A stretch of DNA of 64,000 bases from the human T2T-CHM13v2.0 reference genome, Homo sapiens: the NCBI RefSeq assembly GCF_009914755.1, contig NC_060946.1; one strand, given 5' to 3'. The translations under genes and the position numbers were made by a program. A model generated the notes under the pieces. It was not told the DNA's origin. It saw only the letters and a list, made by a program, of their open reading frames with translations, and did no database searches. The stretch's first letter is position 1. Each line of letters starts with the position of its first letter. Shown in pieces: positions 14,379 through 16,226 of this stretch.

Positions 14379-16226
14379 TTTTTTTTTTTTTTTTTTTTTT
14401 TGAGACAGAGTCTTGCTCTGTCGCCCAGGCTGGAGTGCAGTGGCGTATCTCAGCTCACTGCAACCTCCACCTCTAGGGTTCAAGTGATTCTCCTGCCTCA
14501 GCCTCCCATGTAGCTGGGATTACAGGTGTGTGCCACCACACCCAGCTAATATTTTTGCATTTTTAGTATAGATGGGGTTTCACTATGTTGGCCAGCTGGT
14601 CTCAAACTCCTGGACTCAAGCAATCCACCTGCCTCAGCCTCCCAAAGTGCTGGGATTACAGGCGTGAGACACCATACCCAGCCTTCAGCTATGATTTCTT
14701 TTTCTTTCTTTTTTTTTTTTTTTTTTTTGAGACAGAGGCTCACTCTGTCGCCCAGGCTAGAGTGCAGTGGTGCGATCTCAGCTCACTGCAACCTCCGCCT
14801 CCCAGGTTCAAGCGATTCTTCTGCCCCAGCCTCCTGAGTAGCTGGGATTACAGACAAGTGCCACCATGCCCAGCTAATTTTTTGTATCTTTAGTAGAGAC
14901 GGGGTTTCACCATGTTGGCCAGGCTGGTCTCGAACTCCTGACCTCGTGATCCACTTGCCTTGGCCTCGCAAAGTGCTGGGATTACAGGTGTGAGCCACTG
15001 TGCCTGTCCCCAGCTATGATTTCTAGTAGTCAATTATTGAGTGTTTCCTGATCTCTGCATAATGCCCTCCTCTACCCCTCCCTCTTAGGAAATGACCAGC
15101 TAAGGCTCCAGTATGCTCCCTCAGTTCTCACTTCTAGGGAGGCTTTCCATCTCTAGGTCTTACCTGTGTAGTTTATTCTTTATATCCTGCCTCCTGTCAT
15201 GGGGACAGTGTCCCTATTCCTCTCATGCAGTTTGTCCACAGTGACCTTGGCCCCACTAACCTTTCCAGCCTCTTCTGTATCCAGACCAACTTCACTTTCT
15301 TTAGTGAAGGATTAGAGATGGATAACAGCCTGGAAATGGCCACGTGTAGTGGAAAGGGTTTAGTCTTAGTCAAACAATTCTTGACTCCTCTGGGCAAGTT
15401 AGTTAACCATGCTGAGTCTCATGCCCAGTGGATAGGACACCCCTGCTTATAAGGTGATAATGAAGATTAAACACAAAATCATGTAAAGGGGTTAGCCCAT
15501 ATCCTAGAACACTACAGATACTGATTTCTCTCTCTCTTCTGGCCTTTTTCCCACTTCTCACAAGAAATGTTCAAGAAAGCTTCATTTTTAAAAAGCCCAG
15601 GCCAGGCGCAGTGGCTCACACCTGTAATCCCAGCACTTTGCGAGGCCAAGGCAAGTGGATCACGAGGTCAGGAGTTCGAGACCAGCCTGGCCAACATGGT
15701 GAAACCCCGTCTCTACTAAAGATACAAAAAATTAGCTGGGCATGGTGGCACTTGTCTGTAATCCCAGCTACTCAGGAGGCTGGGGCAGAAGAATCGCTTG
15801 AACCTGGGAGGCGGAGGTTGCAGTGAGCTGAGATCGCACCACTGCACTCTAGCCTGTGTGACAGAGTGAGCCTCTGTCTCAAAAAAAAAAAAAAAAAGAA
15901 AGAAAGAAAAAGAAATCATAGCTGAAGGCTGGGTATGGTGTCTCACGCCTGTAATCCCAGCACTTTGGGAGGCTGAGGCAGGTGGATTGCTTGAGTCCAG
16001 GAGTTTGAGACCAGCTGGCCAACATAGTGAAACCCCATCTATACTAAAAATGCAAAAATATTAGCTGGGTGTGGTGGCACACACCTGTAATCCCAGCTAC
16101 TTGGGAGGCTGAGGCAGGAGAATCACTTGAACCCTAGAGGTGGAGGTTGCAGTGAGCTGAGATGCGCCACTGCACTCCAGCCTGGGCGACAGAGCAAGAC
16201 ACTGTCTCAAAAAAAAAAAAAAAAAA
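14379..16226. repeat. Near-perfect inverted repeat: two-Alu cassette 14379-15006 (-) and 15603-16226 (+), spacer ~596 bp
   Basis: Arms differ at only about 6 substitutions plus tail length; ORFs 14783..14998(-) and 15611..15826(+) encode an identical 71-aa peptide; the non-Alu linker is also shared. Confidence 0.95.

What the first reader, a model, noticed from the sequence alone, without database searches (positions are those of the whole stretch)
14379..16226. ~99% identical inverted two-Alu cassette, apparently made by directional template copying
Seen: two ~625-bp arms, each holding two Alus plus a non-Alu linker, are inverted about 596 bp apart and share private mutations (tttgcgagg, ctaaagatac, gaaccctagagg), with only about 6 substitutions between them. 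Independent AluS copies normally differ by roughly 10-20%, and closely spaced near-identical inverted Alus are known to be rare and unstable. The linker cagctatgatttct is a true TSD in the left arm (14686-14699 and 15011-15024) but occurs only once in the right arm (15911-15924). The right arm has its own possible degenerate TSD (aaaaagccc / aaaaggccc). Inference: a single Alu on the right was overwritten by gene conversion or template switching from the left cassette, possibly with ongoing homogenisation.
Basis: partly seen in the sequence, partly recalled or inferred. Interest (0 to 1): 0.78.

Follow-up and report, generated by a model that had tools for sequence, protein, structure and literature searches.

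The report
Inverted near-identical two-Alu cassette copy
Two 608-base blocks, each made of two Alu repeats and a short linker, face each other 590 bases apart in an intron of ADORA2A-AS1 and are 98.8% identical; the right block is a copy of the left, most likely written over an older Alu by DNA repair, which is a rare outcome of a known process.

Summary
Left arm 14402-15009 and right arm 15600-16208 are reverse complements with 7 substitutions and one 1-base indel. The spacer is 590 bp and single-copy. The 34 other Alus of the window never exceed 91.8% pairwise identity.

The copying direction is settled. On the left, Alu B sits between a perfect 14-bp target-site duplication. The right arm carries only the linker copy, so left was the donor.

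The copy starts at base 1 of Alu B and ends at the A-tail of Alu A. It is flanked by TTTTT/AAAAAGCCC ... AAAAAGGCCC.

Best reading (about 0.7): a single older Alu on the right was overwritten by homology-directed repair or template switching from the neighbouring tandem pair, in a shifted register that added a second Alu.
- Such conversion is known to be local and can replace a whole Alu.
- Three of the 7 differences lie within 10 bp of the arm ends, as leftover acceptor sequence would.

Rivals:
- A retrotransposed read-through transcript of both Alus fits the anatomy, but it would have had to land 590 bp from its source.
- Templated insertion with no prior Alu is also possible.

No ape outgroup could be reached, so the choice rests on base rates. 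There is no evidence for ongoing homogenisation. The process is known, its outcome is unusual, and interest is modest.

The parts
14379..14401 (-). A-tail of Alu A, left (donor) copy; a run of 23 T on the + strand
14402..14683 (-). Alu A, left copy; 12.9% from the window's majority Alu sequence
14686..14699 (-). Linker: 3' copy of the 14-bp target-site duplication of Alu B (AGAAATCATAGCTG in sense)
14700..14728 (-). A-rich tail of Alu B, left copy; holds the single 1-base length difference between the arms
14729..15009 (-). Alu B, left copy; 8.2% from the window's majority Alu sequence; its head at 15009 is the inner end of the left arm
15011..15024 (-). 5' copy of the target-site duplication of Alu B; present only on the left, which marks the left arm as donor
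15010..15599 (.). 590-bp spacer; single copy in the assembly
15590..15598 (+). AAAAAGCCC preceded by TTTTT: candidate 5' target-site duplication and L1-endonuclease-type site of the right-hand element
15600..15880 (+). Alu B', right (copied) arm; starts at base 1 of the Alu
15881..15926 (+). A-rich tail of B', then the single linker copy (15911-15924) and AA
15927..16208 (+). Alu A', right arm
16209..16231 (+). A18 tail, whose last five A with GGCCC (16222-16231) form the candidate 3' target-site duplication AAAAAGGCCC

Best explanation
A tandem pair of old Alus lies on the minus strand at 14379-15009. Alu B inserted next to the head of Alu A and made a 14-bp duplication. This pair served as the DNA template for a one-way, homology-directed copying event. 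The event overwrote a single plus-strand Alu that already sat about 600 bp to the right, inside its own AAAAAG(G)CCC target-site duplication.

The likely course, all of it inferred:
- A break or stalled 3' end near the head of the old Alu paired with the head of Alu B, either on the sister chromatid or by fold-back.
- Synthesis ran through B, the linker and A.
- The new strand re-annealed through the tail of A to the tail of the old Alu.

Because the donor is a tandem, annealing in the shifted register turned one Alu into two plus the linker. The event dates to roughly 2-12 million years ago.

Shown: the duplication, its direction and its exact limits. Inferred: the earlier Alu and the repair pathway.

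One consequence: the ADORA2A-AS1 intron can now fold into a duplex of about 620 bp.
For: - Direction: the 14-mer flanks Alu B twice on the left and occurs once on the right.
- One event, then independent decay: at each of the 7 differing sites one arm keeps the majority Alu state. Four changes are on the left and 3 on the right.
- Limits coincide with the ends of Alu homology: base 1 of Alu B and the A-tail of Alu A.
- End clustering: 3 of the 7 substitutions lie within 10 bp of the arm ends, as short unconverted remnants of the acceptor would. This has P=0.001 for 7 independent hits and 0.01 if the two close doublets count as single events. The test was chosen after seeing the data.
- The flanking duplication is imperfect at 9 of 10 with an indel. 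That fits an old insertion better than one about 1% old.
- Base rates (Doronina et al. 2021, introduction and results read): 98 Alu-Alu conversions in 54,384 orthologous loci, 6 of them after the human-chimpanzee split. In 14 of 52 polarised cases the whole acceptor was replaced. Conversion acts within about 10 kb and falls with distance.
- Alus are dense here: 38 of at least 240 bp in 64 kb, which is the 34 plus the four in the arms. A neighbouring acceptor is therefore unremarkable.
- No other copy of the cassette junction exists in the genome.
Against: - No outgroup or second human haplotype was seen, so the earlier Alu is hypothetical.
- The tract would have to cover all but about 10 bp at each end of the acceptor.
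- It would also have to add about 325 bp of extra sequence. I found no described Alu conversion with that outcome in the papers I read.
- Every anatomical feature is equally what a retrotransposed read-through transcript would show: start at Alu base 1, end in poly-A, TTTTT/AAAAA site, flanking duplication.
- The end clustering is a post-hoc statistic on 7 sites.
- The flanking duplication is only modestly better than chance, at a 3.7% background.
Confidence: 0.7

Rival explanations
1. Read-through retrocopy (Alu 3' transduction). RNA polymerase III started at base 1 of Alu B and ran through its A-tail, the linker and Alu A. The L1 machinery primed on the A-tail of Alu A and inserted the 627-base copy at a TTTTT/AAAAA site that held no Alu.
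For: - The copy starts at Alu base 1, ends in A18, sits at a TTTT/AA-type site and has a 9-10-bp flanking duplication.
- There is no TTTT terminator on the sense strand for 1000 nt downstream of the head of Alu B.
- Alu 3' transductions exist: 386 high-confidence cases among 1,182,410 Alus in CHM13 (Hoyt et al. preprint, passages read).
Against: - The only copy lies 590 bp from its source. With 386 transductions and a target of +-2 kb in 3.117 Gb, about 5e-4 such cases are expected genome-wide (my arithmetic).
- No other offspring exist. The junction 29-mer is found only here. The exact Alu B 38-mer occurs in only 2 places out of 1132 within 2 mismatches.
- Alu B was already about 8% diverged. 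AluS activity had largely ceased before the catarrhine radiation.
- The flanking duplication is imperfect although the copy is only about 1% old.
- The base before the head is A on the right and G on the left.
Confidence: 0.1
2. Templated inverted insertion with no earlier Alu. A break or stalled fork at the A/T-rich right site was repaired by microhomology-primed copying of the nearby left cassette (template switching of the FoSTeS/MMBIR kind, or polymerase-theta-like).
For: - It is local by nature.
- The T5/A5 run at 15585-15594 could prime on the 23-base A/T tract of Alu A.
- Inverted repeats are known to mediate template switches at larger scale (search listing only).
Against: - The inner limit falls exactly at base 1 of Alu B, with no visible microhomology. 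That is a coincidence of roughly 1 in 300, by my estimate.
- The flanking duplication (3.7% background) and the endonuclease-type site would both be coincidences as well.
Confidence: 0.08
3. Repeated or ongoing homogenisation keeps the arms alike, so the pair is much older than 1% divergence suggests.
For: Two difference-free blocks of 241 and 249 bp. The sum of the two largest gaps has P=0.006, or 0.066 if the doublets are merged.
Against: - The blocks disappear as a signal once the three end-proximal differences are read as acceptor remnants.
- The differences are balanced, 4 on the left and 3 on the right.
- One event is enough to explain the pattern.
Confidence: 0.07
4. Assembly artefact, or two independent insertions.
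For: None was found.
Against: - The whole 1.85-kb structure has unique flanks and a unique spacer.
- The arms share 60 departures from the majority Alu sequence, 18 of them rare in the window.
- They also share a non-Alu linker.
Confidence: 0.02

Closest known systems
Complete Alu-Alu non-allelic gene conversion (Doronina, Reising and Schmitz 2021, PMC8230782; the earlier Kass et al. case as cited there)
   Same: A resident Alu is replaced one way by the sequence of another Alu while its own flanks are kept. Whole-element replacement was seen in 14 of 52 polarised cases. Six events are human-specific.
   Different: Those cases are one Alu for one Alu and were recognised by a change of subfamily. 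Here the tract is at least 590 bp, crosses a non-Alu linker and turns one Alu into two. The donor is identified and lies 590 bp away in inverted orientation. The acceptor's earlier state has not been seen.
Homogenisation of neighbouring Alus (Aleshin and Zhi, as summarised in PMC8230782; that paper itself not read)
   Same: Sequence exchange between Alus within about 10 kb, stronger at short distance.
   Different: That signal is statistical sharing of scattered non-diagnostic mutations. It is not a near-complete overwrite that yields 98.8% identity over 608 bp.
Alu 3' transduction (Hoyt et al. T2T repeat preprint, 10.1101/2021.07.12.451456)
   Same: An Alu carries downstream sequence to a new site. 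The anatomy here matches: Alu base 1 to a downstream A-tail, with a flanking duplication.
   Different: Offspring of transductions are dispersed. Here the only copy is next to the source. Their locus table is in supplements I could not open, so this locus may be listed there.
Expansion or contraction of tandem repeats during break repair by synthesis-dependent strand annealing (yeast work of Paques and Haber; recalled, not read; one search was a listing only)
   Same: A newly copied strand from a tandem donor can re-anneal in a shifted register and change the number of units.
   Different: It was shown for short tandem arrays in yeast, not for two diverged Alus (83.8% alike) in a primate genome.
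Fragile inverted Alu pairs (Lobachev class; Ait Saada et al. 2023, PMC10164571) and the depletion of inverted Alu pairs (Cook et al. 2011, PMC3215922, abstract read)
   Same: Near-identical inverted Alus. Such pairs can anneal in single-stranded DNA even when kilobases apart.
   Different: The cruciform-driven fragility needs very short spacers, with a 300-fold drop from 12 to 100 bp. This pair has 590 bp between its arms.

Membership tests
Non-allelic Alu-Alu gene conversion | One-way transfer: the donor is unchanged and the acceptor takes the donor's sequence | tested here: met
   Alu B has both target-site duplication copies on the left only. The arms are 98.8% alike and share 60 departures from the majority Alu sequence.
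Non-allelic Alu-Alu gene conversion | The tract is bounded by sequence homologous between donor and acceptor | tested here: met
   Identity stops at base 1 of Alu B and at the A-tail of Alu A. Three of 7 differences lie within 10 bp of the ends.
Non-allelic Alu-Alu gene conversion | The acceptor keeps its own flanks and target-site duplication | tested here: inconclusive
   AAAAAGCCC against AAAAAGGCCC at a TTTTT/AAAAA site. Background match rate is 13 of 350. A retrocopy would show the same.
Non-allelic Alu-Alu gene conversion | The orthologous locus in an outgroup holds a different, unconverted Alu | not testable with these tools
   No primate genome other than the window's own assembly is held.
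L1-mediated retrocopy with Alu 3' transduction | Starts at the Alu transcription start and ends in a poly-A tract, with no polymerase III terminator between | tested here: met
   Copy spans 15600 to A18 at 16209-16226. The first sense-strand TTTT is 1000 nt from the head of Alu B on the donor.
L1-mediated retrocopy with Alu 3' transduction | Flanking duplication at an endonuclease-type site, intact in a young insertion | tested here: inconclusive
   The site fits. The duplication has an indel although the arms differ by only 1.15%.
L1-mediated retrocopy with Alu 3' transduction | Empty target site before the event | not testable with these tools
   No outgroup sequence is held. The right flank and spacer have no paralogue in the genome.
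L1-mediated retrocopy with Alu 3' transduction | A retrotransposition-competent source at the time of the event | tested here: inconclusive
   Alu B is 8.2% from the majority sequence. No other offspring were found. AluS activity was mostly over by then.
Cruciform-prone (fragile) inverted Alu pair | Spacer of a few to some tens of bases | tested here: not met
   The spacer is 590 bp.
Microhomology-mediated template-switch duplication | Junctions at arbitrary positions with short microhomology | tested here: inconclusive
   An A/T run at the outer junction could serve. The inner junction has no microhomology and coincides with Alu base 1.

The most novel reading that the evidence does not exclude
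The right arm is a retrotransposed read-through transcript of both Alus that reintegrated 590 bp from its own source gene. That would point to a local, source-proximal route of L1-mediated insertion, for example use of a nascent or chromatin-tethered polymerase III transcript at a nearby nick. Current models of Alu mobilisation do not include such a route.
Probability: 0.05. Interest if true: 0.75.

Novelty: new variant of a known kind. Interest (0 to 1): 0.35.

Why it matters
If the reading is right, this is a cleanly resolved case of repair-driven copying between neighbouring Alus. The donor is identified, and the tract crosses a non-Alu linker and adds a whole extra Alu.
- It shows that conversion from tandem Alu donors can create long, nearly perfect inverted repeats. 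It also shows that conversion can mimic a young retrotransposition, which matters for Alu dating and for presence/absence phylogenetics.
- The product is a predicted duplex of about 620 bp in the ADORA2A-AS1 intron, with 619 pairs and a longest perfect helix of 248 bp. That is far more perfect than ordinary inverted Alu pairs. It is a candidate strong substrate for ADAR editing or double-stranded RNA sensing if the intron RNA persists. This consequence is inferred, not tested.

Tried and rejected
- I looked for paralogues of the spacer and of the right flank that might preserve the pre-event state. None exist: each query matched only itself.
- I looked for other genomic copies of the cassette junction. 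There are none.
- I looked for other copies of the Alu B lineage with a 38-mer. Only the two local copies match exactly. The other 1130 places within 2 mismatches look like ordinary Alus with recurrent CpG decay. Five of the 30 places with 1 mismatch share the G-to-C change of TTTGCGAGG. The marker is therefore less private than hoped and the test is weak.
- Two attempts to open the published T2T repeat paper and its transduction tables failed because it is not held. The bioRxiv supplements are closed, so I cannot say whether this locus is listed there as an Alu transduction.
- The paper on inverted duplicates in mammalian genomes (PMC5398296, passages) gave no usable base rate for long Alu-based inverted repeats.
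- A search for ADORA2A-AS1 together with Alu found 2 papers, neither about this structure judging by title and abstract. That one search is my only basis for saying the locus is not described in print.
- Searches on long double-stranded RNA and on strand-annealing repeat expansion were used as listings only.
- I considered sampling 1-2 Mb of the genome for near-identical neighbouring Alus. I dropped it because the expected yield of 0-2 cases could not separate the models.
- Chance and independent insertion are rejected.
- Right-to-left copying is rejected. Both duplication pairs also fit the present orientation of the spacer, so it has not been flipped in this haplotype.

Full report
**What is there**

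The sequence at 14379-16226 holds two arms that are reverse complements of each other. The repeat finder gives two abutting inverted pairs: 345 nt at 99% and 311 nt at 97%, the inner one 590 nt apart. A gapped alignment joins them into 14402-15009 (608 nt) against 15600-16208 (609 nt). It has 7 substitutions and a single 1-base length difference in the inner A-rich tail. Similarity ends abruptly at both limits.

Read in the sense of the Alus (minus strand on the left, plus on the right), each arm has this order:
- Alu B
- an A-rich tail
- AGAAATCATAGCTG
- AA
- Alu A
- poly-A (23 on the left, 18 on the right)

The spacer 15010-15599 and the right flank are single-copy in the 3.117-Gb assembly.

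**More than chance**

The 34 other Alus of 240-330 bp in the window give 561 pairs with median identity 81.1% and a maximum of 91.8%. A and B themselves are only 83.8% alike. The arms share 37 (Alu A) and 23 (Alu B) departures from the window's majority Alu sequence. Of these, 10 and 8 are rare among the 34. The linker-Alu A junction occurs only twice in the whole genome, both times here.

**Direction**

The 14-mer occurs three times in the window against 0.03 expected. It flanks Alu B on both sides on the left (14686-14699 and 15011-15024) and occurs once, as the linker, on the right (15911-15924). Alu B therefore inserted at the left locus, and the right arm is a copy that begins at Alu B's first base.

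At every one of the 7 differing sites one arm keeps the majority Alu state. Four changes are on the left and 3 on the right. This is what a single copying event followed by independent decay gives.

Divergence of 7/607 dates the event to 5.8 million years (95% interval 2.3-11.9) at 1e-9 per site per year. Alu A and Alu B are much older, at 12.9% and 8.2% from the majority sequence.

**The right-hand junctions**

The copy is preceded by CATTTTT/AAAAAGCCC-A and followed, after A18, by GGCCCTATTTC. That is an L1-endonuclease-type site with a 9-10-bp duplication carrying one indel. The motif rule TTTT/AA is recalled, not from a call. On its own the duplication is modest evidence: 13 of 350 other A-run ends in the window match within one edit.

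**Three mechanisms fit the anatomy**

(2) Retrotransposition of a polymerase III read-through transcript, from Alu B through the linker to Alu A. The donor has no TTTT on the sense strand for 1000 nt. Alu 3' transductions are documented: 386 of 1,182,410 Alus in CHM13.

(3) Microhomology-primed templated insertion at a site without an Alu.

**Weighing them**

The deciding datum, the ape orthologue, is out of reach of these tools, so I weighed base rates and fine detail.

Against (2):
- The only copy lies 590 bp from its source. From 386 known transductions, about 5e-4 are expected within +-2 kb of their source anywhere in the genome (my arithmetic).
- There are no other offspring.
- Alu B was an 8%-diverged S-type element at a time when such elements had largely stopped moving.
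- The duplication is imperfect in a copy that is about 1% old.

Against (3):
- The inner limit at exactly Alu base 1, the duplication and the endonuclease-type site would all be coincidences.

For (1):
- Alu conversion is known to act within about 10 kb and to fall with distance.
- Among 54,384 orthologous loci, 98 conversions were found. Six of them came after the human-chimpanzee split. In 14 of 52 polarised cases the whole acceptor was replaced.
- Scaled to about 1.18 million Alus, that is of the order of 100 human-lineage events and some tens of complete ones. This is my extrapolation.
- Alus are dense here.
- Three of the 7 substitutions lie within 10 bp of the arm ends: 15602 and 15608 at the head of B', and 16201 near the tail of A'. 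This has P=0.001, or 0.01 if the two doublets count once, and the test was post hoc. Short unconverted remnants of the acceptor would look like this.

A break near the head of the old Alu could produce the structure. The 3' end would invade Alu B, synthesis would run through B, linker and A, and the strand would re-anneal through the tail of A. This gives exactly the observed product, with the extra Alu arising from annealing in a shifted register on a tandem donor. That register shift is known from yeast break repair; I recall this and did not read it. I put (1) at about 0.7, (2) at 0.1 and (3) at 0.08.

**Against my own reading**

- The earlier Alu has not been seen.
- The tract must cover nearly the entire acceptor.
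- I read no description of an Alu conversion that adds a second Alu.
- The end clustering rests on 7 sites.

- Ongoing homogenisation is not needed. The two long clean blocks (P=0.006, or 0.066 with doublets merged) lose their force once the end differences are read as remnants.
- Instability is overstated. In yeast, Alu inverted-repeat recombination falls about 40-fold from a 12-bp to a 20-bp spacer and 300-fold from 12 to 100 bp. Widely spaced repeats can still anneal in single-stranded DNA. Inverted Alu pairs are mildly depleted genome-wide (abstract).

**Consequence**

By the annotation supplied with the finding, the structure lies in the ADORA2A-AS1 intron between exons 12628-12798 and 32307-32691. 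The 1848-nt minus-strand RNA is predicted to fold at -1476 kcal/mol. It has 619 inter-arm pairs and a longest uninterrupted helix of 248 bp. Whether it is edited or sensed was not tested.

**Novelty**

The process is known and the locus appears undescribed (one search). The outcome is an unusual variant:
- the tract is at least 590 bp and crosses a linker;
- the acceptor grows from one Alu to two;
- the result is a near-perfect 608-bp inverted repeat.

Interest is modest unless the outgroups show an empty site.

Noticed in passing
window 14240-14378 (minus strand): An older, single-monomer-like Alu fragment with its own short A-run abuts the A-tail of Alu A. It is outside the duplicated arms and is only 74-81% complementary to stretches of the right arm (pairs I7, I12 and I17). 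The left locus is therefore a three-element Alu pile-up.
   Followed up: partly
window 43366-43632 / 43673-43939 (minus) and 58516-58783 / 58805-59080 (plus): Two more head-to-tail Alu pairs, 40 and 21 bp apart. These are the same kind of tandem donor as the left cassette. No near-identical partner for them exists in the window.
   Followed up: no
window 14750-14752 / 15857-15859 and 15001-15007 / 15602-15608: Four of the 7 arm differences form two tight doublets, 2 and 6 bp apart. Each doublet is derived in one arm only. They could be single complex mutations or, for the second doublet, the edge of the copied tract.
   Followed up: partly
genome-wide (G000): The G-to-C change that makes TTTGCGAGG recurs in 5 of the 30 Alus elsewhere that match the 38-mer with one mismatch. 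This 'private' mutation is therefore recurrent and not unique to this lineage.
   Followed up: no
window 14379-16226, minus-strand RNA: The predicted intronic hairpin in ADORA2A-AS1 has 619 pairs and a 248-bp perfect helix. That is much more perfect than usual inverted Alu pairs, which are 80-90% identical.
   Followed up: partly
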